From the NCBI GenBank assembly GCA_000004985.1, contig GG738865.1: a stretch of DNA of 64,000 nucleotides; one strand, written 5' to 3'. Each line of letters opens with the position of its first letter. Position 1 is the first letter of the stretch. The position numbers and the translations under genes are program-made. The stretch comes from Naegleria gruberi. Taxonomy: Eukaryota. The notes beneath the pieces are model-generated. The model was not told the DNA's origin, did no database searches, and saw only the letters and a program-made list of their open reading frames with translations. Shown piece by piece: positions 768 through 35,847 of the stretch.

Positions 768-850
768 GCCCGCGTAGCAGAGTGGTCAAATGCGTAAGAC
801 TTAAGATCTTATCCCGAATGGGTTCGTGGGTTCGAACCCCACCGCTGGCA
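768..850 (+). tRNA. tRNA-Leu (anticodon TAA), type II with long variable arm
   Basis: Manual cloverleaf: acceptor GCCCGCG/CGCTGGC (one C-T mismatch at pair 4-69), D-loop GAGTGGTCAAA, anticodon stem TAAGA/TCTTA with loop CTTAAGA, variable arm TCCCGAATGGGTTC, T-arm GTGGG-TTCGAAC-CCCAC. Followed by a T7 run at 856-862. Confidence 0.7.
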
Positions 851-1935: not shown

Positions 1936-2016
1936 TGCAGAAGGTGGGATTTGAACCCACGAAGCTTGCGCAGTAGAACTTGAGTCTACCCCCTTTGACC
2001 ACTCGGGAACCCCTGC
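1936..2016 (-). tRNA. tRNA-Leu (anticodon CAA), type II
   Basis: Minus-strand read: acceptor GCAGGGG/CTTCTGC (two G-U pairs), D-arm CCC-GAGTGGTCAAA-GGG, anticodon stem GTAGA/TCTAC with loop CTCAAGT, variable arm TGCGCAAGCTTC, T-arm GTGGG-TTCAAAT-CCCAC. Overlapping ORF 1777..2034 is spurious. Confidence 0.8.
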
Positions 2017-10488: not shown

Positions 10489-10559
10489 GCGTCGATGGTT
10501 TAGTGGTAGAATACGGCGTTGCCATCGCCGTGACCCGGGTTCAATTCCCGGTCGACGCA
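10489..10559 (+). tRNA. tRNA-Gly (anticodon GCC)
   Basis: Acceptor GCGTCGA/TCGACGC, D-loop TAGTGGTAG, anticodon stem CGGCG/CGCCG with loop TTGCCAT, T-arm CCGGG-TTCAATT-CCCGG. T-run follows at about 10568. Confidence 0.85.
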
Positions 10560-11939: not shown

Positions 11940-12071
11940 AGTATTTTTTTTTGAATATGTTGAATTTGTTGTGAATATTAATGAAATGACCCATCTGAAA
12001 CACACTGAAAAACGATTAGGTTCAATGACAAAATTAGACAATTTCAATCACAAGGACAAAGCAAAATCATT

Positions 12072-12143
12072 CTCCCATGCCGGGAATTGAACCCGGACCT
12101 CCTGGGTGAAAGCCAGGTATCCTAGCCATTGGACTACACGGGA
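12072..12143 (-). tRNA. tRNA-Glu (anticodon TTC)
   Basis: Minus read TCCCGTG-TA-GTCC-AATGGCTA-GGAT-A-CCTGG-CTTTCAC-CCAGG-AGGT-CCGGG-TTCAATT-CCCGG-CATGGGA-G. Typical eukaryotic Glu tRNA. Confidence 0.85.
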
Positions 12144-12209
12144 ATCTTGTTCATAATAATAGTATTACAAATTTGATAATTCATAATCATAGAAACTTTA
12201 TTGTTTTTT

Positions 12210-12690: not shown

Positions 12691-15600
12691 TTATTGTAAT
12701 AGGGCTCCCAATAGACCAACTGTAACCAATTTGCTTAATCTAGCAGCTGCGAGTTTATACTTGAGTTCGAATGGTTTTCTTGAAAGAGCTGCTTTGAAAC
12801 TCTGGTAACTTTCGACATATTCTCCCAATTTCTCTTCACACAAACCTAAAGTATACAATAATTCGGCATTTGTGGGATCTTTCATGAGGAGAAGGGAGGT
12901 AACAAGCTTTCCCTCAGTCCATTCCTCATTTTGGATTAAGAGTTCAACTAATAGTGCAGAATTGGATTGATCACTTTTCAAGTTGAAGGCAATTCGAGCA
13001 TGATGGAGAGCCTTCACATACCTATCAGTAAGTTTATAGGCCATTGCTAAGTAATATTGACATAGTTCAGAATTAGAGTCAATATTATTGGCTCTTTCCA
13101 AATATGGAATGGCAGCTGTTGGATTCTTATGTTTGAGATAGATTATTCCCAACAATTCACAAGCTTCATGACAGAAGGCATTACACTCTCGCAAAATCTT
13201 TTCACACACTTCTTTGGAAGTTTTAGCATTTCCAATCTTTTCCTCACATCTAGCTTTCATAATCAGTGCCTTTTCACAGAGTGGATATTTACGAAGGGCC
13301 TTGTCTAAATGTTGAACGGCTTCTTGGAAATCATTGACTATCATGTTGATTCCAGCAGCTGCAAGATCAGCCTCAAATTTCTCATCCAAAATTTCCAATT
13401 TGGCAAATTTGTGATTTTTGTGAGATGAAGTGTTCTTTTTTTGGTAACAAGAATTGCAGAGATCATAATTTGGACAATCGAGGCACTTCCAACGAATTCC
13501 TGTAAAATCACTTTGTTTACATCCATCACAAATGATATTTTCATGTTTGATTCTTGAAGAAGTATTCGAATTGGAAAGTAAAGGTGGTGATTGGGTCAAT
13601 CTTGGTTCTTGTGGTGGGTTGTTTTGTTGAGGTTTTTGGGTAGTGGATTGTGGAGGATTCTTAATTCTCAAATAAGTTTCGAATGTAGTTGGTTGAACCA
13701 TCTTTCGAATATCTGATTCACTCAAAGATTGGGAACAAGTCATACACCTGATTACAGTGCTTGAATTCATCTTGGAGATGGAATCTTCCATGTAAAATTC
13801 TAAACAATCCCTACAGACTGAATTGTTACAGGAGCAATTACTGAAACCTTTCGAATAACAAGTCGAATCTTTGCACTTGTTGCATTTTGAACATTTTGTA
13901 GTATTGTCACAAATCTTTAAAACTTCTTCTGGAGTAATTCTATCTTTTGGTTCATACAAAACCATCTTTGTGATCAATTCAATCAATCGTTTCGAATACA
14001 CTCCAGTTCGATTCCTAATCTTTTCCTGAATTCTTTCGAATAGTTTCGTTTCTTCTCTATTCGTTTCTGCAATAGTTCCAATATCAGTACTCATATTTAA
14101 CGACAATATTCTAAATAGAGTAGTACCAAATGCAAACATATCACTCGCATACGAATAGTCCTTTGATCCTTGTGTCAATAATTCTGGAGCAATATATCCC
14201 AAAGTTCCTGAACAGTTGGTTTTTGTGTGTGTTCTCATATTTTCTAATTCTTTAGCCAAGCCAAAATCGCTCAACACATAAATTTTTCCTTCTGTTCCAT
14301 CTTTTTGGAGGAAATTCTCTGGCTTAATGTCTCGATGGACTACCTTATTTTGTTTAAGGTATTCTAAGGCGAGTGCACCTTGTTTGATGAATCTCCAGAC
14401 TTCAGTTTCGGGGAGCTGTGTTCCTTGGTTCATGAGTTTGAGTAAATCACCCAGGGGAAAGTATTCCATAACCATATATAGATATGTTGGATCATTGTTG
14501 ATACGGGCATATTCAATTTTGACTATATTGGGATGAGAAAGGGAATTAGCCCTCATGGCTTCTTGTAATGCTTGATTGAGTGTTGATTCATCACTTGATT
14601 TGCTAGAATTGAGAATAACCTTTACAACTTTAGTTTTTCCATTATCAGAAACTTTGAATACGAACGAAAATCCTCCTTCTCCCAAACAAGCTACATTTTG
14701 AAACTTTTGCTGTAAACTCCTCTCAACAATACTACAAAACTCTTCTTCACTAACTTTCAACTGAGCTTTCTTTGCTTCTGGATGGACTAAACCATCAGAA
14801 ACACCATTTTTGGAAAAACTTGGCCTAAACTGAGCTCCAACATTAATAGAACTTCTGGCTCCTGTGACAATGGCTCTCATCCTTCTCTTACCAGATTCAA
14901 CCGTATTTAAATACTTGAACATTAAGCCAACACTATCATCATCTGAAATCTTATACCAAGCTCCATCTTCCAAATATTTCAAATCAAAATTGTCGCATTT
15001 GATCTTTGATTTGATTCGTTTGGTGAGATCAGAGAAGGTATCCAATTCTTTGAGAAATATTTTGTGGATATTTTCCTCTTTGGTGGATGATTGGGAAGAG
15101 AGAGTTTCCTCTAAAATAATGTTTAGTTCTGTGCCTTGAGTGGATGAAGTGCTACTTGGCAATGAAGTGCTGGATGTTGAGTTTTGACTGATAGAGATGG
15201 AAGAAATACTGCTTCTAGAAGATGATTTCTCAATGGCATGAATAATTCTATTGGACTTGTCCAGAGTTTCGTAAAATTCCATCATTGATTCGAATGATAC
15301 CTTGTTGAGGGTAAGTTTATCCTCCAATTCGAAATAGCTAATTTCAAACTCAGCATTTGGTAATTCTGCATACTTTCTAACCAATTTCATCAAATCTTCA
15401 TAACCTTCACCTGATTTCAAACTTGATGAAAATTTCAACAAATTTTCATTTGATTTCAATTGAATTTCAAGTTTGAATTCAAACTTTTTAGGTTGTAAAT
15501 CCATTTGAAAGGAGGCACTTGTAGTGAATGATCCAATTCTTGAAAATGAATTCATTGATTGTGTAGGAGAAATCAGTTTCGGCACTTCTTTCGGATAGGA

Positions 15601-15930
15601 TGAAGAATCGAAAGTGGAAGATTTTGCAATCGTTGTTGTAATGTACAAATAGTTTTTGGTGGTGCTATTGGAGAATCTGGTTACCAGTGAAGGGAGATCA
15701 TTGTTGGTAAGAAGTTTTCGTTCTAAATCGTCGTGGAATTTAATTTCGACTAGACTTTCGTTTGCAATTTCGAATACTGCTCTTGCTTTTTGTTGGATTT
15801 GAGAAATACTTTGGAAAAAGGAGTTGTCGACCTGAAGTTCTACTTCCCTCTTTTCGAGTTTGAGAATTACAGGTATTGTCATGTTGTTTTTTTTGAATTG
15901 AGAAGAATTTGAAAAAGTTTCGAACAGCAT
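12691..15930 (-). CDS. Ser/Thr protein kinase, multidomain: three PB1/ubiquitin-like N-terminal modules, kinase domain, Cys-rich B-box-like region, ZZ zinc finger, C-terminal TPR repeats (1079 aa)
   Basis: Kinase motifs GEGGFSFVFKV, VVKVIL, HPNIVKI, HRDIKPENFL, DFGLAKEL, GTLGYIAPELL. ZZ finger ICDGCKQSDFTGIRWKCLDCPNYDLCNSCYQKKNTSSHKNHKF. PB1-like FDLKYLEDGAWYKISDDDSVGLMFKY. TPR-like helical repeats at the C-terminus. Confidence 0.85.
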   Translation of the reverse strand: MLFETFSNSSQFKKNNMTIPVILKLEKREVELQVDNSFFQSISQIQQKARAVFEIANESLVEIKFHDDLERKLLTNNDLPSLVTRFSNSTTKNYLYITTTIAKSSTFDSSSYPKEVPKLISPTQSMNSFSRIGSFTTSASFQMDLQPKKFEFKLEIQLKSNENLLKFSSSLKSGEGYEDLMKLVRKYAELPNAEFEISYFELEDKLTLNKVSFESMMEFYETLDKSNRIIHAIEKSSSRSSISSISISQNSTSSTSLPSSTSSTQGTELNIILEETLSSQSSTKEENIHKIFLKELDTFSDLTKRIKSKIKCDNFDLKYLEDGAWYKISDDDSVGLMFKYLNTVESGKRRMRAIVTGARSSINVGAQFRPSFSKNGVSDGLVHPEAKKAQLKVSEEEFCSIVERSLQQKFQNVACLGEGGFSFVFKVSDNGKTKVVKVILNSSKSSDESTLNQALQEAMRANSLSHPNIVKIEYARINNDPTYLYMVMEYFPLGDLLKLMNQGTQLPETEVWRFIKQGALALEYLKQNKVVHRDIKPENFLQKDGTEGKIYVLSDFGLAKELENMRTHTKTNCSGTLGYIAPELLTQGSKDYSYASDMFAFGTTLFRILSLNMSTDIGTIAETNREETKLFERIQEKIRNRTGVYSKRLIELITKMVLYEPKDRITPEEVLKICDNTTKCSKCNKCKDSTCYSKGFSNCSCNNSVCRDCLEFYMEDSISKMNSSTVIRCMTCSQSLSESDIRKMVQPTTFETYLRIKNPPQSTTQKPQQNNPPQEPRLTQSPPLLSNSNTSSRIKHENIICDGCKQSDFTGIRWKCLDCPNYDLCNSCYQKKNTSSHKNHKFAKLEILDEKFEADLAAAGINMIVNDFQEAVQHLDKALRKYPLCEKALIMKARCEEKIGNAKTSKEVCEKILRECNAFCHEACELLGIIYLKHKNPTAAIPYLERANNIDSNSELCQYYLAMAYKLTDRYVKALHHARIAFNLKSDQSNSALLVELLIQNEEWTEGKLVTSLLLMKDPTNAELLYTLGLCEEKLGEYVESYQSFKAALSRKPFELKYKLAAARLSKLVTVGLLGALLQ

Positions 15931-16085: not shown

Positions 16086-18098
16086 TTAAGGTTGAATGGA
16101 TCTCAATGCTTCTACAATAAATTCATCATCATTTGGTAATTTATCCAAAGCTCTCTCAAGTAATTTTCTCGATTCGTCCAATTCATTCAATTTTTTCATA
16201 TAAATTCCATGAGCAAATAAGGCAATTCCTTCATCAGTCCATGAGTAGATATTTAGAGGTGAAGATAATTGTTGTAAGACTTGAACAATTGCATCGATAG
16301 CTTCTATATTTCTTTTCAAGGAATATGACTTTGAAAGTAAAGCAACACTTCTTTCGAATAGATTAGTTTTCAAGGCACATAGTCCAGCAAGGTAGAAAGT
16401 TTTGTAATTCTCCTTTGAAAGAGCTTTTTCATATAAAGAATAGGCATTCTCGTACTTTCTAATATTAAAATAGCAATAGGCGAACCTTTCATAGAATTTG
16501 ACATCTAGTCTTGATTTCCATTCTTTAACAGAATATGCCTTACTGAAATATTCGATTGCCTTCTCATAATTTTTCAAGTAAAAGCAACAATTGGCTGCTT
16601 TCGTAAGAATTGTTAAACTTGCACTGGATCTTTTAAGATATTGATCACAAAATTTGAGAGCAATCTCATAATTTCCATTCTCATAATTTTTAGAAGCATT
16701 TTGCAAAACCTCATTAATTGGACTGAGTTTCAGAGTAATCACTCTTTGCTTTGGATCTTTTGATAGGAGGGAAGTGATCATTTGATAACATTCTGAATCA
16801 TTGGTTACGATTTCTTGATTATGAGTCAAGTTAAAGTCATTGTGCCCTAATTTCTTTTCAATTAGTTTAACCAATTCATCGTATTTAGGATAGAATGGTA
16901 ATTCGATACGATATGCTTCACCATCTGCTTGTAAAGTGAAAAGTTGCTTTTTGGTATTTAAATAGTCATTGGTCAACTGAAGCAACACATTGAGAGACAT
17001 TCTTTGAGCTGGATCTTTTTTAATCATTCCAAGAATGAGTTGACTAACAAATGGTGAAATACTCAACTCAACCAAATGTCTTTCAACTTGTTCAGGTTTC
17101 TCACATAGAATTTCTCCAGTTGCCCCGAACCTTCCAATCATTAAATAATACAATGTAATTCCCAAACTAAAGATATCACTTTGAATTGAGAAATTCTTAC
17201 AATCTTCAACAACTTCTGGTGCCAAATATCTTACAGTTCCTTCCATTTCAATATTGACTTGTCTATTGAATTTGGAAGAGGTAAAGGCACTTCCAAAATC
17301 ACTCAACACAACATGGATGCTATCATCTGAAATTGACTTGACAAGTATATTATCTGGTTTCACATCTCTATGACAAACCTTTCTATCAACACAAGCCTGA
17401 AATGCCTGGCTAACTTGATTAATAATCATCACAGCAATGTGCTCTGTAATATTTCTCAATTTTTTCTTACCATCATCGTCCAAGAAGAAGTTTTTCAAAG
17501 TTCCAAGCATTCTCTCCATTTCATAGCACACCACAGATTTGAAATAGCTAACATTATTTAGTGTGAAAAAGTTACCTGCCTCAACAATATGTGGATGATT
17601 CATTGAGAGAGTAGTTTTCACTTCATTCAATAGATCATTTCCATTATCGTCAATTAGAACTTTGACAGCAATTGGTATTGAATTTTCAATTGGAGGAAGA
17701 CCAAACACAAAACCAAAACCACCCTTACCTAGCAAGGAAATAGAGTTCTGGTCAACATTGTACTTTTCGGCTAGTTTCTTCTTTAATTTTTCTGCCTTTT
17801 CCTTGCTTGAAATGGAAGGACGAAACGATTTGTAACAAATCAATTTGTGTTCAATCTTTGCACTCCCTCTAAACTTGGTGATCATGGTTTCGACATCAAT
17901 ATCTTTCGACAAGCAGAATTCCTCCGAATCGAATTTGTATTTTAGAGAACGATTCTCGAGTGAAATGGTTTTTGATACAATTTTCTTCAATTCCTTGATT
18001 GTTCGAGTGTTTGTTGAAATCTCAACGACCAACAGGCGTTCTACTGTGTTTTCTTCCACAATAATCACCTGGACATTCTTATTGAATAGATTAAACAT
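16086..18098 (-). CDS. Ser/Thr protein kinase paralog: PB1-like N-terminus, kinase domain, C-terminal TPR repeats (about 671 aa from first ATG)
   Basis: GKGGFGFVFG, IAVKVL, HPHIVEA, HRDVKPDNILV, DFGSAFT, GTVRYLAPEVV. TPR-like C-terminus (YEKAIEYFSKAY...). Track start at 18176 is a GTG. First ATG is at 18098 (MFNLFNK). Confidence 0.85.
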   Translation of the reverse strand: MFNLFNKNVQVIIVEENTVERLLVVEISTNTRTIKELKKIVSKTISLENRSLKYKFDSEEFCLSKDIDVETMITKFRGSAKIEHKLICYKSFRPSISSKEKAEKLKKKLAEKYNVDQNSISLLGKGGFGFVFGLPPIENSIPIAVKVLIDDNGNDLLNEVKTTLSMNHPHIVEAGNFFTLNNVSYFKSVVCYEMERMLGTLKNFFLDDDGKKKLRNITEHIAVMIINQVSQAFQACVDRKVCHRDVKPDNILVKSISDDSIHVVLSDFGSAFTSSKFNRQVNIEMEGTVRYLAPEVVEDCKNFSIQSDIFSLGITLYYLMIGRFGATGEILCEKPEQVERHLVELSISPFVSQLILGMIKKDPAQRMSLNVLLQLTNDYLNTKKQLFTLQADGEAYRIELPFYPKYDELVKLIEKKLGHNDFNLTHNQEIVTNDSECYQMITSLLSKDPKQRVITLKLSPINEVLQNASKNYENGNYEIALKFCDQYLKRSSASLTILTKAANCCFYLKNYEKAIEYFSKAYSVKEWKSRLDVKFYERFAYCYFNIRKYENAYSLYEKALSKENYKTFYLAGLCALKTNLFERSVALLSKSYSLKRNIEAIDAIVQVLQQLSSPLNIYSWTDEGIALFAHGIYMKKLNELDESRKLLERALDKLPNDDEFIVEALRSIQP

Positions 18099-18283
18099 TT
18101 TTTTATTCGAAAGTGGCTCTCTGTCACGTTTCGAATACTTCACCACAGGCAATAATCTCTTTAATTCTTTGATCACGTTTCAGATATTTTTAAACCAATT
18201 TGTCCCTCCAATCAACCTTTTTCACAAAGTTTACAAATCTTTAACTTTTCTGATAATTATTACAAAATTAATGGAAAAAAAAA

Positions 18284-25366: not shown

Positions 25367-25437
25367 CTCGAGTGCCGGGAATTGAACCCGGGTCGCCAGA
25401 GTGACAGTCTGGAATGCTACCACTATACCACACCCGA
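25367..25437 (-). tRNA. tRNA-Asp (anticodon GTC)
   Basis: Minus read TCGGGTG-TG-GTAT-AGTGGTA-GCAT-T-CCAGA-CTGTCAC-TCTGG-CGAC-CCGGG-TTCAATT-CCCGG-CACTCGA-G. D-stem has one mismatch. Confidence 0.8.
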
Positions 25438-25504: not shown

Positions 25505-26662
25505 TCAAATTGAATTATCTTCCTCATCTGAATCTGTTGTTTCCCCTTTAAACTTAGCAAAAGGTATCCATTGCTCATTACTTGCCAGGAATGATTTCTC
25601 ATGCTCTCCCAATGTACATTGTAAGTAATTATAAATGAGTTGATATCTCACAATTGTTCTTTCCTCAGACAATATTCCAATTTCTTTCAAATTCTTCTCA
25701 AAATCATTTCCAAGAATCTCACTCAATAACTCCACAGCTGGTTCATTGATCCTCTCCTTATTACTATCCATATAACCTGTAGCAGAGGAAAACATAAACC
25801 CACCAAACACCTCCTGGCCATAAACAGTGAACGATTCACTGGCATTGGAAATTCCTCTGAGCGTGTCGATATTTCTTTGATATTCTCCCTCCACCACCAG
25901 TGGATATCCACAATTGGTGAAAATCAGACATTTAACTTTGTAATGTATATGTCCTTCCATACTTTTATCTAATTTCCATTCCAAAATAAATTCATCTCGT
26001 GATCCACTTGTGAAAATTAACTCAATTTCATCTTTGCTTATTTCAGTTTTACCCAATTCTTCAGTGATAATATAAGAACCTTCTAGAAAATAACCAAAAT
26101 TTGAATTGATAAATCGTTTGGCTTTCATTCTATCCAAAATTTGATATAAATTGTCAAATTGAAAGTCTGCACTGTAAATGTCATCAATTAAATTTGATAA
26201 TTTTTCTTTGGATTTTTGATAGAGATTGGAATCATTCAATTGAAGATACCATTGAAAAACTTGTTGAAAACTCGTTGGTGGATTGGATAAGTCGAGAGTG
26301 CCCTTTTTAGAATGTTTGATATTCTTTTTTTTCTTGTCAAATGTAGTTTCGTCTCGTTTCCTCTTCTCACCAACAGCTCCATTCAATAAAGATTCACGAA
26401 ATATTGGTGGATTATAAATTAATTCTTCCAATTTCTTCTCCTCTTCCTCTAACAAATTAAAATATTCGCACAAATAATCCCGAGCGAATGTTTCACTATT
26501 CGAAAAGGAATAAAATGTTTTTGAGATCAGAAATGGCTTGCTAACTTTCCATTCCTCTGGTTTTATGAAGAGAAGAATTTGAGAACAAACAACCGTATCA
26601 AAACAAGCAAAAGATCCACTGGATGTGAAAACCGTAGCGTGTGGAAGCATTTTTTTTGACAA
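25505..26662 (-). CDS. Hypothetical protein, 385 aa, no recognised family; divergently paired with G-alpha-like gene (129-bp spacer)
   Basis: Intact ORF with normal composition. Confidence 0.55.
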   Translation of the reverse strand: MSKKMLPHATVFTSSGSFACFDTVVCSQILLFIKPEEWKVSKPFLISKTFYSFSNSETFARDYLCEYFNLLEEEEKKLEELIYNPPIFRESLLNGAVGEKRKRDETTFDKKKKNIKHSKKGTLDLSNPPTSFQQVFQWYLQLNDSNLYQKSKEKLSNLIDDIYSADFQFDNLYQILDRMKAKRFINSNFGYFLEGSYIITEELGKTEISKDEIELIFTSGSRDEFILEWKLDKSMEGHIHYKVKCLIFTNCGYPLVVEGEYQRNIDTLRGISNASESFTVYGQEVFGGFMFSSATGYMDSNKERINEPAVELLSEILGNDFEKNLKEIGILSEERTIVRYQLIYNYLQCTLGEHEKSFLASNEQWIPFAKFKGETTDSDEEDNSI

Positions 26663-26791
26663 TTATTTTTACAATATTTGAAAATCTTGTAAAATTGAGA
26701 ATTTTTTAAAGTTCTTGCAGAGTTCTTTGAACTTCAGAGGTGAAATTAATTTTTCCTTTTTAGATTTTCCATAATTTTACAATAAAAAAAA

Positions 26792-27928
26792 ATGGGAAAC
26801 AAGCAAGCAACACAGGATATTGACGAACATGGTGGCGACAATGATCAAGAAACAATTCGAATAGATTCGTTTCTCATGATGGTTGGCGGAAGTTCAAGCG
26901 GAAAAACACAAACAATTTTAAATATTAGAAAGGATTTTAATATTGCGATAAGGATTTATCAAATTATGGACATGTTATTGTGGGAATTGAAAGTAGTAAC
27001 GGATGAATCTATGCAATTACCAATGTATTTAATTCCGAAATTTTGTAAAATGAAACGAAACTGGAAGAAAGAAAGAAAAGTTTATTTACAGAGATTGGAT
27101 GAAAAATTTAGAAAGAAATTGGAATTATATGATGTTTCTATTGATTCTTTGGTGGAAGTGGTTGGAAAATCCATTGGAAAGGATAAACATTTGAGTCCAC
27201 TTATGGATAAACAAATTTTCAAACGGTTGACCAAATCAGATTTTGACATTCTTGAAAAATGTAAAATAATTCTCAAGACCTTTTACATATTCGAGACGTG
27301 TAATTTTCCCTTTAGAGTTGTTAACGAGCAGAATGTCGGATTAGTACTGGTTTCGACTAACATTTTTAAACTACCTCAAGCTATTACAAATTTGAAAGCT
27401 TTGAAAATATTCGAAACTGTTTTAATTTATGTTTCATTGACTGGATTTTTAGATAATACAGACATTAGAAATCATATTAGATATTCGAATGAATTGGATA
27501 GGACCATAGAAAGTCTGATTGAAAATGTTGTACAGTTTCCTGATAAGAGATTTGAATTTGTATTTACAAAACCAGATTTATTAGAAATGGTACTATCAAA
27601 AGGTGTTGAATATCCTAGACGAATACTTCATTCAACAAGAAATGAGTTTCGTTCAATTCCATCATTTGCCAAAACTCTGAAAATCATTAGCTCAATAATT
27701 GCAGAATGCGAAGAAAAGTTTCTCCACTTTACCAACTATCAAAAACCATTCCAATTTCATATTGCTCGGGCTAATTTGTTAAATGAAATGGAGAGAGTAC
27801 TTGCTAGTGCAACAGGTAACCATTTCAAACAGTTTATTACACCAATTATCAAATTTTATACTCCACCATTCGAATCATCTCAAATCATGATCGCTTTTTC
27901 AGATATTTCATTTACGATTTCTATGTAA
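26792..27928 (+). CDS. Divergent G-protein alpha-subunit-like protein with N-myristoylation consensus (MGNKQAT) and degenerate GTPase motifs
   Basis: P-loop FLMMVGGSSSGKTQTI (res 27-42) vs G-alpha LLLLGAGESGKSTI. FRVVNEQN at switch-I position. FETVLIYVSLTGFLDNTD (207-224) vs CFEGVTAIIFCVALSDYD. FEFVFTKPDLLE vs ILFLNKKDLFEE. Inter-motif spacings (144/32/52 aa) match G-alpha (138/37/54). No DVGGQ. Confidence 0.45.
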   Translation: MGNKQATQDIDEHGGDNDQETIRIDSFLMMVGGSSSGKTQTILNIRKDFNIAIRIYQIMDMLLWELKVVTDESMQLPMYLIPKFCKMKRNWKKERKVYLQRLDEKFRKKLELYDVSIDSLVEVVGKSIGKDKHLSPLMDKQIFKRLTKSDFDILEKCKIILKTFYIFETCNFPFRVVNEQNVGLVLVSTNIFKLPQAITNLKALKIFETVLIYVSLTGFLDNTDIRNHIRYSNELDRTIESLIENVVQFPDKRFEFVFTKPDLLEMVLSKGVEYPRRILHSTRNEFRSIPSFAKTLKIISSIIAECEEKFLHFTNYQKPFQFHIARANLLNEMERVLASATGNHFKQFITPIIKFYTPPFESSQIMIAFSDISFTISM

Positions 27929-28026
27929 ACCAAGAGATAGTGTTGTTTCGTTTTAGTAAACAAGTACCGTAGGTCTGATTTTGTTTGACAAATTATGTTA
28001 TATTCCTTGGATTAAGGTTATGAATG

Positions 28027-28145
28027 GCTACGGCCATATCACGATGAATGCACCTCATCCCGTCCGATTTGAGAAGTTAAGCATCGTCGAGCCACATCAG
28101 TACTGAGGTTGGAGACAACTTGGGAACCTGTGGTGCTGTAGTCTT
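28027..28145 (+). rRNA. 5S: 5S ribosomal RNA gene (dispersed single copy)
   Basis: GGCTACGGCCATATCACG...GAATGCACC..ATCCCGTCCGATTTGAGAAGTTAAGC...AGTACTGAGGTTGGAGACAACTTGGGAACCTGTGGTGCTGTAGTC. Helix I ends pair. T5 terminator at 28145-28149. Confidence 0.85.
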
Positions 28146-28198: not shown

Positions 28199-30403
28199 TT
28201 ACTTTCGACTGTTTAATGAAATTATTTCTGCTTCCTTCATAAACTCTACGTCGTTTCTTAATGATTCATCGGCATATTCAAGTGCTTGTAGTCCATATGT
28301 TTTAACTGCCTCCATAACAACTTCTCTGTCTTTTCTTAATGATTCATCTGCAAATTCAAGTGCCCATCCATGTTGCTGAACTGCTTCCATTACAACTTGT
28401 CTATCTTTTTTCAATTCATTATCTGCATATTTAAGTGCTCGACCATGCATGTTAATTGCTATCATTACAAGCTCTCTATCTTTCCTCAGTGCTTCACCTG
28501 CAAATTCAAATGCCCATACATCATGTTGAACTGCTCGCAGTACAATTTCTCTATCATTTCTAAATGATTCATCGGCAAATTCAAGTGCTCGTCCCTGTAT
28601 TACAACTGCCTCTAAAACAAATTCTTTGTCTTGTTTCAATGATTCATCAGCAAATTCAAGAGCCAAACCATGTGATTTAATCGCTGCCATTACAATTCCT
28701 CTATCTTTTTTCAGTAGTGTATCTGCAAACTCGAGTGCCCATCCATTTTGTTGAACTGCCTCCAAAATCACTTCTCTGTCTTTTCTTAATGATATATCTG
28801 CATGTTTAAGTATTTGCCATTGAATCTTAATTAATTCCATTACAAGTTTTCTGTCTTTTCTGAGGGATTCATCTGCAAATTCAAATGCATGATCATTTTG
28901 TGCTACTTTTAGAATAAAGTCTCTATCTTTTCTTAATGATTCGTCTGCAAATTTAAATGCTTGTCCATGGATTTTAATTGCTTCAAATACAATTTCTCTA
29001 TCTTTTCTTAGTGATTCGTCTACATATTGAAGCGCCCATCCATTTTGCTTAACAGCTTCCATTACTATTTCTTTATCTTTTCTTAATGATTCATCTGCAA
29101 ATTCAAGTTTCAATCCCTTTCGTTTAACTGTCTCTATTACAACCTGTCTATCTTTTCTAAGTGATTCATCTGCAAATGCCAACAGACCATGTTCTATAAT
29201 AAAAGCCCTGCTACTACTTGGTATGGTGAGCGCTTTATCAAGATGAAAAGTTAATTCACAAAATTCCGCAGCTATTATATCATTTTTCCAAATATCATAT
29301 TTACGATTCCTAAACAAAATATAATTAAATATAAAATAATAGAATCCATCTTCCCTCTCTTGAGGATTACTCGATGTAAATCGATCAAGCATTTGAGTCA
29401 AGTCAAAATTTTCAAATACTGAATTCGAAACATCATTGTTCTGATTATTATCGAGCAGTTTTTGGAAGGTTTTTCCCAATGAATAAATATCAGAGTGGAA
29501 TGTTGGTTTAAAATCCGGACCATTCTTGAATCTATTTTGACCATCCTCAAATATCAATAATTCAGGTGCACAGTATTTAGTTGTTCCACCCAATGATACA
29601 ATTCCCATTTGATTGGCCAATGTTTCATTATGTATAGATAATCCAAAATCACATATAGCTACTTCTGCCAAATAGGTATCATTTAATTTCTTAATCAGAA
29701 TATTTGCTGGCTTTATATCAGAATGTACCATTCCATTCTGTCTCATTAAGGCCAATACTTCACAACATTGATATAGTATTAATACCATTTGTTGATGATT
29801 GAATTTAACTGTCTTGTTATCTAATAAATATTGTAAACTTCCAAATGGTAAATATTCCATTTCAATGCAGCAAATATTTCTAATAAGCATGATGTTAAAT
29901 ATTTTAATAACATTAGGATGTTTCAAATTGATAGCATTAAAAGCTTCACTCAATCCCATTGTTGAATTGGGAATAATCTTCATTGCTCTAATAGTTTCCA
30001 CTTGTTTAGTTTTTTGATTTCTCTTAGTTACCTTTAAAACAGTTCCAAATCCTCCATTTCCAATCCTTTCAGCATGCCACACCTTTTCATAATCATCAAT
30101 TTCATCATTATTCGATCCAATTTTTTCAGGCTTACCATTTAAATACTTATTAAAGTAGCCAATCACTAAATTCACACAACCCTCTGCAAATTGATCTGTA
30201 ACCTGTTGTTCATTATTCAATTTTAACAAGTGTAGAAAGTGTTCCATAATTTTAATATTATTTTCACCTTTAATACAGTGTGATGCAATGGATTGATTGA
30301 CAAATAACAAGTCTTCGTAGAATTGACTTGTTTTTTGATATTTAAAGGCTTGTTCCGTTGTATCGTCATCATAAATGTCAGCAGTCAGTTGACTTCTTTT
30401 CAT
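28199..30403 (-). CDS. Protein kinase (non-RD: HSDIKPANIL) with 13 C-terminal DUF4116-type tandem repeats, 734 aa
   Basis: GNGGFGTVLKV, AMKII, HPNVIKI, HSDIKPANILI, CDFGLS, GTTKYCAPELL, then 13 repeats of about 25 aa of the form (F/Y)ADESLRKDREIVxEAVKQxGxAL. Confidence 0.85.
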   Translation of the reverse strand: MKRSQLTADIYDDDTTEQAFKYQKTSQFYEDLLFVNQSIASHCIKGENNIKIMEHFLHLLKLNNEQQVTDQFAEGCVNLVIGYFNKYLNGKPEKIGSNNDEIDDYEKVWHAERIGNGGFGTVLKVTKRNQKTKQVETIRAMKIIPNSTMGLSEAFNAINLKHPNVIKIFNIMLIRNICCIEMEYLPFGSLQYLLDNKTVKFNHQQMVLILYQCCEVLALMRQNGMVHSDIKPANILIKKLNDTYLAEVAICDFGLSIHNETLANQMGIVSLGGTTKYCAPELLIFEDGQNRFKNGPDFKPTFHSDIYSLGKTFQKLLDNNQNNDVSNSVFENFDLTQMLDRFTSSNPQEREDGFYYFIFNYILFRNRKYDIWKNDIIAAEFCELTFHLDKALTIPSSSRAFIIEHGLLAFADESLRKDRQVVIETVKRKGLKLEFADESLRKDKEIVMEAVKQNGWALQYVDESLRKDREIVFEAIKIHGQAFKFADESLRKDRDFILKVAQNDHAFEFADESLRKDRKLVMELIKIQWQILKHADISLRKDREVILEAVQQNGWALEFADTLLKKDRGIVMAAIKSHGLALEFADESLKQDKEFVLEAVVIQGRALEFADESFRNDREIVLRAVQHDVWAFEFAGEALRKDRELVMIAINMHGRALKYADNELKKDRQVVMEAVQQHGWALEFADESLRKDREVVMEAVKTYGLQALEYADESLRNDVEFMKEAEIISLNSRK
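28235..29210 (-). repeat. Coding tandem repeat: 13 copies of about 75 bp (25-aa DUF4116-like unit EFADESLRKDREVVMEAVKQNGWAL)
   Basis: Periodic protein repeat visible in translation of 28199..30403. Coding, not CRISPR. Confidence 0.7.
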
Positions 30404-31171: not shown

Positions 31172-31243
31172 TACCAGGAACGGGATTTGAACCCATGTCT
31201 TCGGGATGGGAACCCGACATGCTAACCTCTGCACTATCCTAGT
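31172..31243 (-). tRNA. tRNA-Gly (anticodon CCC)
   Basis: Minus read ACTAGGA-TA-GTGC-AGAGGTTA-GCAT-G-TCGGG-TTCCCAT-CCCGA-AGAC-ATGGG-TTCAAAT-CCCGT-TCCTGGT-A. 5-prime nucleotide is A and acceptor has one T-G pair. Overlapping ORF 30957..31220 is spurious. Confidence 0.6.
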
Positions 31244-32598: not shown

Positions 32599-35500
32599 TT
32601 ATTGAAGGAAGGAAGATAATTTGTTTTGGAGTTGGTTAGTGAAATATTCCTTCATTTTGGATAATGGAGAAAAGATTTTGGATACAATTGACTTGGATTT
32701 GCTGGAGATCATGATCATGGTTGAAGTTGGACTAGATTGCCACAAGAGACCGTAAGCAAATATTCTGAAAACTAATCCAAAACTGAGAGCGACCAGGACT
32801 AGATAGAGAATGTGATCACTTTGGTAACTGTATAGAGATAGACTCTTTACAATATTGTAATCCTCTTCATAGTTGATAATTTCACCAATGTAGAGCAATT
32901 CTCTGACATAACGAGCATGAGAAAGAAGTGGAAACATTGGAAGTGGTTGTGGCATTTCATTCAAATCGGTCAATGTTGGAGTTCCTCCACAAAACATGTA
33001 AGACAGAAAGATTATGGTTGCACATGTAATTTGTCTCAGTTGTGGACTCACTGTAATTGAAACACAGTAAGCTATTGGAAAGGTAACATAGCTCAATAAG
33101 AACATGCTTCCAAAATAGAAACCAAAACTTGCTCTAGGTGAAATGATAAAGTAAAAAGTCAAGGAAAAGAAGAAGGAAACAATGAGAACTTGCAAGTTGG
33201 CTAACAGATCCTTGACCAGAAAGTACATGATAGAATTGATACCATTCAAAGTTTCTCTGATATAATTTGCCTTTTCGTTACCAAAGACTCTCAATGAAGA
33301 CATGGCAGCTGTCAAACTACATCCAAATATTAATAAACTTGCTAGGGCTATCACGTAATCCTTTTGAGGAAGTGCACAAATTGCAATCTTATCAGTTGGA
33401 CATTGATAGACTATACTCTTATCTACAGGTCCTTGATACAAATCACCAGACTGATTCAGGAATAACAATCCCAATAGAAAACCAGCAAGTATACTCAAAA
33501 CAGCATCAAAGATAATACTCATCCAACTTCTGGCCATTTGGATAATGGATCTAATCATTAATGCAATGAATTGTTTGTAAAATGGAGAGACATCTTTGGA
33601 GTGACGAGATTTTCCTCCTTCCTTATTATTTTCCCTTTCAGTTTGCTGAGATGGAATAAGGGAAGGGGTTGATGACAACTCCTCAGCAATTGAATCAATT
33701 CTTAATTGTAATTGATTCAATTCTTCATGAGTAGCTCCAGAAACAAAATCTAAAATTTCATCTGCATTGGCACCTCTCTTGATTTTGAGAATCTTTCCAA
33801 CTTCCCTACATATCACCTCACGCTTACCTCTCAAAACAACTTGTTTAGTCTTGAAAACCATGACATCTGTAAAGAGACAGAAAGTTTCATAGGCAGGTTG
33901 ATGGATAACACAAATGACTGTTTTTCCTCCATCTGCAATTTCCTTGAGGATTTTACAAGTTTTGTTTGCTGTCAAATAATCAAGACCCTACGAATATAAA
34001 ACGATTGATATTGATGAATTTACCAAAAATAGAAAATTGATTAATATAATTAGGAAAATCAAAAAAAAACATACAGTTGTAGGTTCGTCCAAAATAAGAA
34101 CTGCTGGTTGAGTAACCAATTCAATTCCTACATTCACTCTCTTCTTTTCACCACCTGAAATTCCTCTATGCTCTTCATTTCCAATAATTGTATTCGAAGC
34201 ATCATAACCTTCCTTAATAAGCTTCAAATCTCTCAAAACCTTATCCACAACCTTTCTATGTCCATCCATATCCAAATAATCATTCCTAACAAAAGAATTA
34301 AACATGAGTGTCTCTCTTGGAGTCAGAGTATGAATCATTATATCCTGTTGTGGCACAAATCCAATTAATCTCTTTTGGGAATCGGATTTTAATTGCTTCT
34401 TGCCAATATAAACTTTCCCGCCCATTTTACCACGTGCTCTTCTACTCAGAGTGTTGATGAAAGTTGTTTTGCCACTTCCAGATTCTCCTAGAATTGCAGT
34501 GAAGGTGAATGGATGGAATTCGCCACTGCTTTCGTATAGATGAGTGTTACCTGAGAAATCTTTGAAATTCAACTTTTCGTAAGTGATTTTGGCTCCTGTT
34601 TGAGAAGTTTTGGTTTCAGATACGGATTCTTCTAGTTTCTTTGAAGGTTTCTTTAACAAATTAATGGTAATCTTTCGAATAAATAATGGAAGAAATGTGG
34701 AGATTTCACCAGAATATAAAACTCTTTGAATTCTCATGGAAATTGACAAAGTGGCAATCAAGCAGAAAATCAAAATCAAGACGAAACCAATCATGAGCCA
34801 AGTAACTTCACTCATGGAACTTTCTACATAGTAGGAACCACTGATAGTGAATGGGAAACTTGTAGAATTACTTTCTATATAATCTTCTAATGAGGATTCG
34901 GATATTGTTGTCAAGTAATCATATCCTACATAATTAGAACTATTCGAAAGTGTTTCAACTGAGTAAAAGTTGACTTGAAATAAAATTCTCACACCATAAT
35001 TTCCCTTTTCTTCAATTTCTGTTGAATTATCAACAACAGATAACGCAAATTGTTTAAAACCATATTTAGTATTAGAAGTAATCCAATAATTGACCGAATA
35101 TGGATCTAAATAATAAGAAGAGTTGTAGCTCTCAAAGGAAGATAACTCTTTAAAGTAGTAAATGTTGAATGTTGTTGGAGAATAGTAAAATAAAGTCAAC
35201 TTGTCCAAATTTTCAAAAGTTTCACTTGTAGAGTTAATGGAAATGATCTTTTGGGAGAAACATGTCTTGACGAGAGTTGAGTTGAGAGTTGGGTGCTTGT
35301 AAACGAAACCATTGTCAGTGTTGCATGTACTCGAAAATTCTTCATTGAAATAGACGAATTCTGACGAAACTCTTCCGATACTGTAGTAAGAATAATAGAT
35401 GGTTCCACTCAATATCAACATGTAAATGAAAATGAAGAGTGAAATTAACATGCAAGTGATACCATTCTTCAAAATGGATTTCCTTTCTTTCGAAGCATTT

Positions 35501-35847
35501 GTTGAGTGAGGTTTCGTATTTGGTTGATGAGTCGTAGATTGAATATCATCATATTCAGATACAATATCCAGTTGAATAGCTTCATCAAATGACGACTGAC
35601 TATCAGAATTTGCACTCACATGTGTTATTGTTGAACTCTTCACCTTCTTATTTGATTCTCTTGGAGTTTCCATTGGTTTCTCCGATCCATTTTCATCATC
35701 TTGCACCTCTTCAATAGAAATTTCATATTCTACTGAGACCTGTTGTTGACTTGCTGTTCCAAGAGTGGACATGTTTTTTTTGATTTGTAAACTAATTGCA
35801 TCAGTTTCGTATATCATTCTTTTAACCCAACAGTCAAGAAACAACAT
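32599..35847 (-). CDS. ABC transporter, ABCG-like half transporter (NBD-TMD) with extra N-terminal TM-ectodomain-TM module; 2 exons (35847..34075, 33987..32599; intron GTATGT..TCGTAG 87 nt)
   Basis: Walker A LGESGSGKTT, signature ISGGEKKRVNVGIE, Walker B VLILDEPTT|GLD split by the intron, six C-terminal TM helices (ABC2 type). N-terminal region has two TM helices flanking an about 200-aa NxS/T-rich segment. Confidence 0.8.

What the first reader, a model, noticed from the sequence alone, without database searches (positions are those of the whole stretch)
26792..27928. N-myristoylated G-alpha-like protein with intact GKT P-loop but missing DVGGQ switch II and NKxD changed to TKPD: likely a GTPase-dead pseudo-G-alpha
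Motif order and spacing reproduce the heterotrimeric G-alpha Ras-like domain (P-loop, RV at switch I, FExVxxIIFxxxLSxYD, xKxD) with a helical-domain-sized insert and an MG N-terminus. The Mg/gamma-phosphate-binding DxxGQ is absent, and switch I lacks the conserved Thr. Such a protein could act as a nucleotide-independent scaffold or GPCR/G-beta-gamma sink.
Basis: partly seen in the sequence, partly recalled or inferred. Interest (0 to 1): 0.5.

Follow-up and report, generated by a model that had tools for sequence, protein, structure and literature searches.

The report
Degenerate G-alpha paralogue in Naegleria gruberi
This gene of the amoeba Naegleria gruberi, so far annotated only as a "predicted protein", is a very divergent copy of a G-protein alpha subunit that keeps its phosphate-binding loop but has lost the residues needed to hydrolyse GTP and to switch. 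It is of modest interest: Naegleria has many G-alpha copies, and this one looks confined to one species and may be decaying.

Summary
The ORF is real: 26792..27928 (+), 378 aa. The window is Naegleria gruberi, and the gene is NAEGRDRAFT_48704 (XP_002677676.1), a "predicted protein" annotated from Met30.

- an MGNKQAT N-terminus
- a Walker A loop, GGSSSGKT
- FETVLIYVSLTGFLD
- TKPD
- no DxxG(Q) in any frame

Pfam G-alpha (PF00503) does not match, even at E<=10, and a canonical G-alpha profile aligns only the P-loop. An exhaustive phmmer search of 1.8 billion proteins nevertheless gave exactly one non-self hit (E 9.5e-5). It is an N. gruberi paralogue that matches PF00503 itself (E 3e-42).

Best reading: a G-alpha-derived pseudoGTPase that may still hold nucleotide but cannot switch. 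No orthologue was found outside N. gruberi, and a sister strain carries a frameshifting 101-nt deletion, so gene decay is a serious rival. A role as a G-beta-gamma or GPCR sink is untested.

The parts
26792..27928 (+). Complete ORF, 378 aa plus stop. It is N. gruberi NAEGRDRAFT_48704 / XP_002677676.1 / D2VDP2, a 'predicted protein'.
   Evidence: ORF list. The exact-sequence look-up places the cluster and the neighbouring gene in N. gruberi. The annotated 349-aa product is identical from Met30 onward.
26792..26812 (+). MGNKQAT. It fits the N-myristoylation consensus G-{EDRKHPFYW}-x(2)-[STAGCN]-{P}. This is a prediction only.
   Evidence: Sequence. Relatives P0010, P0005 and P0007 also start with MG. 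An in-frame stop lies just upstream. The public model instead starts at 26879.
26861..26908 (+). Beta-1 strand plus the G1/Walker A loop: IDSFLMMVGGSSSGKT (aa 24-39). GxxxxGKT is intact, with Ser at the Ras-G12 / G-alpha-i1 G42 position and Ser at the E43 position.
   Evidence: Regex match. Aligned to LLLGAGESGKST in every alignment. The model gives a strand at 26-32.
26930..27280 (+). All-helical insert of about 117 aa (aa 47-163), in the position and of the size of the G-alpha helical domain. It has no detectable sequence similarity to that domain.
   Evidence: Spacing of 222 aa against 218-223. The model predicts six helices here, but with pLDDT below 50.
27281..27409 (+). Degenerate switch I / beta-2 / beta-3 / switch II region (aa 164-206). 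The alignment here is ambiguous, and no Arg finger or DxxGQ is present.
   Evidence: Three alternative alignments. No D..G or GGQ.
27341..27367 (+). LVLVSTNIF (aa 184-192): beta-3 followed by STNIF where G-alpha has DVGGQ. This is the most likely placement.
   Evidence: Gap-free BLASTP alignment to LNLVTAGGK of P0002. The same placement appears in A2 and A6. The model gives a strand at 184-189 and a helix at 191-202.
27410..27454 (+). FETVLIYVSLTGFLD (aa 207-221): beta-4, equivalent to FEDVTAIIFVVALSEYD of G-alpha.
   Evidence: Aligned identically in all alignments. V214, S215, L216 and F219 are invariant within the clade. The clade HMM match starts here. pLDDT is about 78.
27551..27583 (+). 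FEFVFTKPDLL (aa 254-264): beta-5 plus the G4 motif. It reads TKPD (27566..27577) in place of NKxD, with the Lys and Asp retained.
   Evidence: K260 and D262 are invariant in all alignments. [STV]KPD[ILV]L is shared with P0002, P0003 and P0010. pLDDT is about 82.
27755..27775 (+). FHIARAN (aa 322-328): beta-6 plus the G5 equivalent. G-alpha has H-x-T-C-A-T; the His and Ala are kept, while Thr/Cys/Thr are replaced.
   Evidence: H323 is invariant. The model gives a strand at 321-325.
27833..27925 (+). Clade-specific C-terminal extension (aa 348-378): FITPIIK...FSDISFTISM. It replaces the canonical short receptor-contacting C-terminus.
   Evidence: F348, I349, D371 and I372 are invariant with P0002 and P0003. 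There are 115-124 aa after the G4 Asp in the clade, against 80-82 in canonical G-alpha. This part is modelled at low confidence.
27683..27783 (+). A 101-nt segment that is absent from a 97%-identical environmental N. gruberi-like contig (L001). Its loss shifts the frame for the last ~80 codons, covering alpha-4, G5, alpha-5 and the tail.
   Evidence: blastn of L001 against the window. The P0001 sequence diverges after ...SFAKTLK. TGAAA microhomology lies at both edges.

Best explanation
The ORF is a highly diverged paralogue from a Naegleria subclade of heterotrimeric G-protein alpha subunits.

What it keeps:
- the G-alpha layout: a short N-terminus, beta-1 and the P-loop, an all-helical insert of about 120 aa, then the second half of the Ras-like domain
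- an intact Walker A loop (GGSSSGKT)
- the G4 Lys and Asp (TKPD)
- the G5 Ala

What it has lost:
- the Mg/gamma-phosphate-sensing DxxG and the catalytic Gln of switch II (most likely STNIF now)
- the switch I Arg finger
- the acidic P-loop residue

Inferred mechanism: the protein may still hold a guanine nucleotide as a static cofactor, or may be empty. Either way it cannot hydrolyse GTP or undergo the GTP-dependent switch II transition. It would therefore act, if it acts at all, as a constitutive non-switching binding module. It is probably tethered to membranes through Gly2 myristoylation, and its partners would be contacted through the conserved Ras-like core and the clade-specific C-terminal tail.

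Shown: homology, motif status, architecture. Inferred: loss of GTPase and switching, lipidation, adaptor role.
For: - Homology. An exhaustive phmmer search of 1.84 billion proteins returns only a strain variant and P0002 (E 9.5e-5). P0002 is an N. gruberi protein that matches PF00503 at 145 bits, E 3e-42.
- Pairwise support. BLASTP of the ORF against P0002 gives 5e-13 over 190 aa with collinear motifs. There are weaker collinear matches to P0003 (E 0.002) and P0010 (E 1.5e-4).
- Clade HMM: 35.2 bits, against a maximum of 10.0 in 2000 shuffles.
- Architecture. The P-loop to G4 spacing is 222 aa, as in G-alpha. The C-terminal length and the FI[ST]P / [ST]DI[SQ][FI] tail are shared only with the clade.
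- Motif loss. There is no DxxG(Q) in any frame. The roles of the missing residues (Q204, R178, G42, E43, A326) are as summarised.
- Weak sign of constraint. Between strains pN/pS is 0.34 (8 non-synonymous and 6 synonymous changes, one-sided p=0.046), the same ratio as in the neighbouring gene.
Against: - There is no direct match to PF00503 or to a canonical G-alpha profile. The N-terminal half has no significant similarity to anything beyond the P-loop.
- The structural model was built from an alignment that contains G-alphas, so its resemblance to G-alpha is partly built in. Its helical domain and switch region have pLDDT below 50, and TM-scores are only 0.3-0.4.
- No orthologue was found outside N. 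gruberi.
- A sister strain has a frameshifting deletion that removes the last ~80 residues of the frame.
- No expression data were available.
- The public model starts at Met30, which lacks the MG signal.
Confidence: 0.6

Rival explanations
1. The gene is a decaying, functionless paralogue: a relic of the lineage-specific G-alpha expansion in Naegleria that still has an open frame in strain NEG-M but is drifting towards a pseudogene.
For: - It is restricted to N. gruberi. No relative other than P0002 passes E<=1e-3 in the exhaustive search, and the metagenome scans found nothing.
- It is the most degenerate end of a graded series: P0003/P0010 at 185/172 bits to PF00503, P0002 at 145 bits, the ORF with no hit.
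- A 97%-identical environmental strain carries a 101-nt out-of-frame deletion. Divergence rises from 0.8% before it to 4.7% after it.
- The evidence for constraint is thin: 14 substitutions, p about 0.05.
Against: - A 378-codon frame is intact in 31% G+C DNA.
- The Walker A loop, the G4 Lys/Asp and the hydrophobic core strands are kept.
- pN/pS is 0.34, equal to that of the neighbouring gene.
- The clade-specific C-terminal FSDISF motif is conserved with P0002 at only 25% overall identity.
- The deletion comes from a single metagenome assembly and could be an assembly artefact or private to one strain.
Confidence: 0.27
2. The protein is still an active NTPase or switch that uses a non-canonical catalytic arrangement. 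It could work like the GTPases that carry a hydrophobic residue in place of the catalytic Gln (HAS-GTPases, from my own knowledge), or it could have changed its nucleotide specificity.
For: - The Walker A loop is intact, with Thr39 available for Mg.
- The G4 Lys/Asp and the G5 Ala are retained.
- Under the preferred alignment, Phe or Ile sits at the Gln position.
- Characterised Naegleria G-alphas already show unusual P-loops and kinetics.
Against: - HAS-GTPases keep the DxxG motif (my own knowledge). Here both the Asp and the Gly that contacts the gamma-phosphate are gone.
- No Arg finger can be aligned.
- Ser sits at the G42/Ras-G12 position, and substitutions there impair hydrolysis.
Confidence: 0.08
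3. The protein is not G-alpha-derived. It would be an unrelated P-loop NTPase, or an orphan, whose resemblance to G-alpha is a chance match of low-complexity, AT-biased composition.
For: There is no Pfam hit at all. hhalign probability against canonical G-alphas is 3%. The PDB phmmer search gives only a P-loop match to a tRNA isopentenyltransferase at E 0.22.
Against: - The single hit among 1.84 billion proteins is a G-alpha from the same species.
- The match covers beta-3 to alpha-5 collinearly, with six shared motifs and identical spacing.
- The shuffle control reaches at most 10 bits, against 35 observed.
- Two further clade members match independently.
Confidence: 0.04

Closest known systems
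N. gruberi 'predicted protein' P0002 (431 aa) and its relatives P0003 and P0010, a Naegleria subclade of PF00503 G-alpha proteins
   Same: - Same species.
- G-x-S-[DS]-SGK P-loop.
- VSL[ST]xF beta-4.
- [STV]KPD[ILV]L G4 motif.
- Y-x-R and H-[IV] motifs.
- A C-terminal extension of about 35 aa containing FI[ST]P and ending in [ST]DI[SQ][FI].
- P-loop to G4 spacing of 218-222 aa.
- P0002 is itself degenerate at switch II: TAGGK, with no Asp and no Gln.
   Different: - These proteins still score 145-185 bits on PF00503, whereas the ORF scores nothing.
- P0010 keeps DVGGQ and P0003 has DVGGR, whereas the ORF has STNIF.
- Identity to the ORF is only 18-25%.
Canonical and Naegleria fowleri G-alpha subunits (for example Nf G-alpha-7, PDB 6ne6; Bosch et al. 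2022, PMC9283941)
   Different: - All 13 N. fowleri G-alphas were found by HMM, and all conserve the switch II Trp. The ORF has no detectable profile match.
- The ORF lacks DVGGQ, the switch II Trp and the Arg finger.
- Its G4 reads TKPD.
- It has a longer C-terminus.
Plant extra-large G proteins (Arabidopsis XLG2), described as a 'decoy' G-alpha (Lou et al. 2019, bioRxiv 10.1101/795088)
   Same: Both are G-alpha-derived domains lacking the catalytic Gln and Arg. XLG2 is proposed to work independently of nucleotide by binding partners. It is the best functional analogy.
   Different: - The origin is independent.
- XLG has a long N-terminal extension and a degenerate P-loop and G5 (Ala to Gln). 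The ORF has no extension and keeps GxxxxGKT and the G5 Ala, but has lost DxxG.
- XLG2's binding to RGS1 and G-beta-gamma is experimentally shown. Nothing is known for the ORF.
PseudoGTPases in general (for example the AAGAB and p190RhoGAP pseudoGTPase domains; PMC12490416, PMC5593906)
   Same: A GTPase fold with catalytic G motifs missing, used as a protein-interaction module.
   Different: Those examples derive from small-GTPase-like domains, and class i members bind no nucleotide. The nucleotide-binding class of the ORF is unknown, and an intact P-loop with the G4 Asp suggests binding is possible.

Membership tests
Heterotrimeric G-protein alpha subunit (Pfam PF00503) | Significant match to the family profile (gathering score 48.8 bits) | tested here: not met
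   No PF00503 hit at E<=10 for the whole protein or for its N- and C-terminal fragments. hhalign against four canonical G-alphas aligns only the P-loop, at 3% probability. A local canonical HMM run with --max finds nothing.
Heterotrimeric G-protein alpha subunit (Pfam PF00503) | Significant sequence similarity to bona fide members (transitive homology) | tested here: met
   The phmmer hit to P0002 has E 9.5e-5 in 1.84 billion proteins. P0002 matches PF00503 at E 3e-42. The clade HMM scores 35.2 bits against 10.0 or less in 2000 shuffles. Pairwise matches to P0003 and P0010 add support.
Heterotrimeric G-protein alpha subunit (Pfam PF00503) | Ras-like domain interrupted by an all-helical domain of about 120 aa between alpha-1 and beta-2 | tested here: met
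   The P-loop-Lys to G4-Lys spacing is 222 aa, against 218-223 in seven G-alphas. The model predicts six helices in the insert, at low confidence.
Heterotrimeric G-protein alpha subunit (Pfam PF00503) | G1 motif G-A-G-E-S-G-K-S-T | tested here: inconclusive
   The generic GxxxxGK[ST] is present as GGSSSGKT. The G42 and E43 equivalents are both Ser.
Heterotrimeric G-protein alpha subunit (Pfam PF00503) | G2 / switch I motif R-x-x-T-x-G-I (Arg finger plus Mg-binding Thr) | tested here: inconclusive
   No R..T is present anywhere. Alignments disagree: STNI or ETCNF can each fall on TTGI. No Arg finger appears in any of them.
Heterotrimeric G-protein alpha subunit (Pfam PF00503) | G3 / switch II motif D-V-G-G-Q | tested here: not met
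   No D.GG, GGQ or correctly placed DxxG in the protein or in any frame of 26500..28100. The best-supported equivalent is S188-TNIF.
Heterotrimeric G-protein alpha subunit (Pfam PF00503) | G4 motif N-K-x-D | tested here: not met
   TKPD: the Asn is replaced by Thr, while the Lys and Asp are invariant. The same Asn loss is seen in P0002, P0003 and P0010.
Heterotrimeric G-protein alpha subunit (Pfam PF00503) | G5 motif T-C-A-T | tested here: not met
   A-R-A-N follows the invariant His323. Only the Ala is retained.
Heterotrimeric G-protein alpha subunit (Pfam PF00503) | Binding of G-beta-gamma, coupling to a receptor or 7TM-RGS, and a GTP/GDP cycle | not testable with these tools
   These need biochemistry. 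Sequence gives no support: the N-terminal helix region is short and acidic, switch II is replaced, and the C-terminus is non-canonical.
Naegleria [STV]KPD G-alpha-like subclade (informal; P0002, P0003, P0010) | [STV]KPD[ILV]L G4 motif, G-x-S-[DS]-SGK P-loop, and a C-terminal extension of about 35 aa with FI[ST]P and a terminal [ST]DI[SQ][FI] | tested here: met
   All three features are present in the ORF.
PseudoGTPase (GTPase fold lacking catalytic G motifs) | GTPase fold | tested here: met
PseudoGTPase (GTPase fold lacking catalytic G motifs) | Catalytic motifs missing | tested here: met
   DxxG, the catalytic Gln and the Arg finger are all absent (alignments).
PseudoGTPase (GTPase fold lacking catalytic G motifs) | No GTP hydrolysis; defined nucleotide-binding class | not testable with these tools
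   Requires recombinant protein assays.
Plant extra-large G protein (XLG) | Long N-terminal extension preceding the G-alpha-like domain; plant lineage | tested here: not met
   Only 31 residues precede the P-loop, and the organism is a heterolobosean. XLG is therefore an analogue, not a relative. The specific make-up of the XLG extension (Cys-rich, NLS) is from my own knowledge, not from a tool result.

The most novel reading that the evidence does not exclude
Heterolobosea would have evolved their own 'decoy' or adaptor G-alpha, independently of plant XLGs. A Naegleria-specific subclade first exchanged NKxD for xKPD and gained a new C-terminal tail, replacing the receptor-contacting end. Its paralogues then lost the switch machinery step by step (DVGGQ, then DVGGR, then TAGGK, then STNIF). 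The ORF would be the end-point: a functional, myristoylated module that holds nucleotide but never switches, and that wires membranes to a partner recognised by the conserved FSDISF tail.
Probability: 0.25. Interest if true: 0.55.

Novelty: new variant of a known kind. Interest (0 to 1): 0.36.

Why it matters
- If the protein is functional, it would be a second, independent case of a G-alpha turned into a non-switching module, after plant XLGs. It sits in a lineage where G-protein signalling already departs from the animal model (self-activating G-alphas, many 7TM-RGS proteins; PMC9283941).
- It shows that HMM-based censuses of G-alpha repertoires, such as those built on PF00503, miss the most divergent paralogues.
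- The graded series within one genome (P0010/P0003, then P0002, then this ORF) would be a natural experiment on the order in which G motifs are lost.
- If the gene is merely decaying, it is an ordinary by-product of a lineage-specific gene expansion.

Tried and rejected
- **Pfam.** Scans of the whole ORF and of two fragments at E<=10 gave no G-alpha hit and nothing else meaningful.
- **phmmer against PDB sequences.** Only a P-loop match to a tRNA isopentenyltransferase, E 0.22.
- **Word-indexed homologue searches.** The search with the ORF returned only a strain variant. The search with P0002 found the paralogue P0003 and a few canonical G-alphas, but no new relative of the ORF itself. The search with the 3-sequence alignment added only P0010.
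- **Metagenome contig scans.** Both the scan with the ORF and the scan with the alignment returned nothing.
- **hhalign.** ORF against four canonical G-alphas: P-loop only, 3% probability.
- **Single-sequence AlphaFold.** pLDDT 33, unusable.
- **afdb50 fold search.** The library was not available.
- **tblastn for paralogues inside the window.** None found.
- **Intron or alternative-frame rescue of DVGGQ.** Rejected. No such peptide exists in any frame, the public model has no intron, and the 101-nt difference from L001 is a genomic deletion, not a GT-AG intron.
- **First guess at the organism.** I first suspected a parabasalid. The exact-sequence look-up showed N. gruberi.
- **Literature.** Searches for the locus tag and accessions found no paper on this gene; the single D2VDP2 hit is unrelated.
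- **N. fowleri supplements.** A search for xKPD motifs was uninformative.
Full report
**Observation**

An in-frame stop lies just upstream of the ATG.

The protein begins MGNKQAT. It carries a perfect Walker A loop, G32-GSSSGK38-T39, preceded by the hydrophobic stretch IDSFLMMV. It also has FETVLIYVSLTGFLD (207-221) and TKPD (259-262) after the hydrophobic FEFVF.

The only DxxG is in the acidic N-terminal tail (D11-EHG). No D.GG, GGQ or [DE][VIL]GG peptide occurs in any of the six frames of 26500..28100, so the 'hidden exon' escape route is closed. My own estimate is that an open frame of this length in 31-33% G+C DNA has a chance probability of about 1e-13.

**Origin of the window**

An exact-sequence look-up identified the neighbouring kinase/DUF4116 gene (28202..30403, -) as N. 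gruberi XP_002677780.1. It placed the ORF's 90% cluster with XP_002677676.1 / NAEGRDRAFT_48704 / D2VDP2, a 'predicted protein' of 349 aa. That public model is identical to the ORF from Met30 (MVGGSSSGKT...) and has no intron.

Starting at Met30 would remove most of beta-1, the central strand that precedes every P-loop. That strand aligns with KLLLLG of G-alphas and is modelled as a strand at 26-32. Relatives P0010, P0005 and P0007 also start with MG 27-40 residues before the P-loop. I therefore prefer the 378-aa reading. The start codon, and with it the myristoylation signal, remains unproven.

**Direct family tests fail**

- Pfam gives no family at all for the ORF at E<=10, neither for the whole protein nor for its N- and C-terminal fragments.
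- phmmer against PDB sequences gives only a P-loop match to a tRNA isopentenyltransferase (E 0.22).
- hhalign against an alignment of four canonical G-alphas aligns only the P-loop, at 3% probability.
- A local HMM of canonical G-alphas run with --max finds nothing.

**Transitive homology rescues it**

An exhaustive phmmer search of 1.84 billion representative proteins returned exactly two hits. One is a strain variant (P0001). The other is P0002 (E 9.5e-5), with ORF residues 185-374 aligned to P0002 residues 240-430.

P0002 is an N. gruberi 'predicted protein'. It matches PF00503 at 145 bits (E 3e-42) over residues 70-394, so the region shared with the ORF lies inside its G-alpha domain.

Pairwise BLASTP of the ORF against P0002 gives 5e-13 over about 190 residues with only a few short gaps. 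The stretch from beta-3 to beta-4 is gap-free. The shared motifs are VSL[ST]xF, [ST]KPD[IL]L, Y-x-R, [FY]H[IV], FI[ST] and a terminal FSDISF.

Two further clade members match the ORF collinearly in pairwise tests: P0003 (N. gruberi, PF00503 185 bits) at E 0.002, and P0010 (environmental, 172 bits) at E 1.5e-4. An HMM of the three clade members scores the ORF at 35.2 bits, and 2000 shuffles of the ORF reach at most 10.0 bits.

**Architecture**

The distance from the P-loop Lys to the G4 Lys is 222 aa in the ORF and 218-223 in seven G-alphas. This can only be explained by a helical-domain-sized insertion. The length after the G4 Asp is 116 aa, against 115-124 in the Naegleria clade and 80-82 in canonical G-alphas. 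The ORF thus shares the clade's C-terminal extension of about 35 aa, in which F348, I349, D371 and I372 are invariant.

**Structure**

Single-sequence AlphaFold was useless (pLDDT 33). With the 6-sequence alignment A6, the model reached pTM 0.58. The Ras-like core elements had pLDDT 70-82, in the order beta-1, alpha-1, [six helices], beta-2, beta-3, alpha-2, beta-4, alpha-3, beta-5, alpha-G, alpha-4, beta-6, alpha-5.

- In Foldseek against the PDB, all top hits are G-alpha subunits (E from 2e-5, probability 1.00, TM only 0.3-0.4).

Because the input alignment contained G-alphas, this shows compatibility rather than independent proof. The helical insert, the switch region and the tail are all below pLDDT 50.

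**State of the G motifs**

G-alpha-i1 numbering and residue roles follow.

| Motif | Canonical G-alpha | This ORF | Comment |
|---|---|---|---|
| G1 | GAGESGKS | GGSSSGKT | Generic motif intact. Ser at the G42 (Ras G12) position and Ser instead of the acidic E43. The clade has G-x-S-D-SGKS. |
| G2 | R-x-x-T-x-G-I | undecidable | MAFFT variants give three different alignments of residues 160-206. None provides an Arg finger. The gap-free one puts T169 on the Mg-binding Thr. |
| G3 | DVGGQ | most likely S188-TNIF192 | Placement rests on the gap-free alignment with P0002's LNLVTAGGK and the modelled beta-3 at 184-189. Asp, the gamma-phosphate Gly and the catalytic Gln are all lost. |
| G4 | NKxD | TKPD | Lys and Asp are invariant. 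Loss of the Asn is a clade trait (SKPD, VKPD), present even in P0010, which keeps DVGGQ. It is not a sign of death in itself. |
| G5 | H-x-T-C-A-T | H-I-A-R-A-N | The Ala is kept. |

Within one genome there is a graded series. P0010 has DVGGQ, P0003 has DVGGR, P0002 has TAGGK and the ORF has STNIF. PF00503 scores fall in step: 172-185 bits, then 145 bits, then nothing.

**Mechanism (inferred)**

A protein with Walker A, the G4 Lys/Asp and the G5 Ala could still bind a guanine nucleotide. Without DxxG, the catalytic Gln and the Arg finger, it should neither hydrolyse GTP nor order switch II in response to the gamma-phosphate. It would therefore be a non-switching module, and the MG N-terminus would tether it to membranes.

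The closest functional analogy is Arabidopsis XLG2, a G-alpha-like 'decoy' that lacks the catalytic Gln and Arg and binds partners independently of nucleotide (bioRxiv 10.1101/795088). XLG2 has the opposite pattern, with a degenerate P-loop and G5, and an unrelated N-terminal extension.

The regions that contact G-beta-gamma and receptors in canonical G-alpha are precisely those that are short and acidic (the N-terminal helix region), replaced (switch II), or non-canonical (the C-terminus). That these regions make those contacts is from my own knowledge.

**Is it alive?**

No orthologue was found outside N. gruberi. The only other copy is on a 2.4-kb environmental contig (ERZ929261, L001) that is 97% identical in DNA. 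It lacks window bases 27683..27783. This 101-nt deletion, flanked by TGAAA microhomology, shifts the frame for the last ~80 codons. Divergence is 0.8% before the deletion and 4.7% after it.

Between the two strains the ORF has 8 non-synonymous and 6 synonymous differences. This gives pN/pS 0.34 and a one-sided p of 0.046, the same ratio as in the upstream neighbour. That is a weak hint of constraint, and it does not exclude ongoing decay. I found no paper that mentions the gene.

Published surveys note a lineage-specific diversification of G-alpha in N. gruberi (PMC3971589). They also report 13 HMM-detectable G-alphas in N. fowleri, all of which conserve the switch II Trp (PMC9283941). The ORF lacks that Trp and would be invisible to such surveys.

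**Verdict**

The G-alpha ancestry and the loss of the catalytic and switch motifs are supported, although only through intermediate sequences. The proposed functions are untested, and gene decay is a serious rival.

This is a new, unannotated and extreme variant within a known kind (G-alpha-derived pseudoGTPases). It is of modest interest unless function is demonstrated.

Noticed in passing
window 28026..28144 (+): A complete 5S rRNA gene (105 bits, model positions 1-120) lies only about 100 nt downstream of the ORF's stop codon, as a solitary copy between two protein-coding genes.
   Followed up: no
window 768..850, 1936..2016, 10489..10559, 12071..12144, 25367..25437, 31172..31243: Six dispersed tRNA genes: Leu-TAA, Leu-CAA, Gly-GCC, Glu-TTC, Asp-GTC and Gly-CCC. 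tRNA-Asp sits right after the 3' end of the ORF's upstream neighbour.
   Followed up: partly
window 28199..30403 (-): A protein kinase domain followed by 11 DUF4116 repeats (489 bits). It is identical to N. gruberi XP_002677780.1 / NAEGRDRAFT_66990, and this match identified the organism.
   Followed up: partly
window 12691..15930 (-) and 16086..18176 (-): Two adjacent kinase + TPR genes. The first also has PB1 and ZZ domains. They look like a tandem pair of signalling paralogues.
   Followed up: no
window 32599..33975 (-) and 33988..35847 (-): An ABC_tran ORF is followed 12 nt later by an ABC2_membrane ORF on the same strand. This is probably one ABCG-type half-transporter gene split by a short intron or a frame change.
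   Followed up: no
L001 1..2385 (ENA ERZ929261, PRJEB11402), matching window 25505..27933: An environmental metagenome contig is 97% identical to this N. gruberi locus. It has three indels (12, 10 and 16 nt) in the 129-nt intergenic promoter region, and a 101-nt frameshifting deletion in the ORF.
   Followed up: yes
window 25505..26662 (-): The divergently transcribed upstream neighbour (385-aa ORF) has no Pfam family at E<=10. Between the two strains it shows pN/pS 0.34. It is another orphan gene.
   Followed up: partly
P0002, P0003 and P0010 (N. gruberi paralogues and an environmental relative; not in the window): These are PF00503 members with [SV]KPD in place of NKxD, Ser at the Ras-G12-equivalent P-loop position, and a C-terminal extension of about 35 aa. 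P0002 also lacks the switch II Asp and Gln (TAGGK). This looks like an undescribed Naegleria G-alpha subclade.
   Followed up: partly
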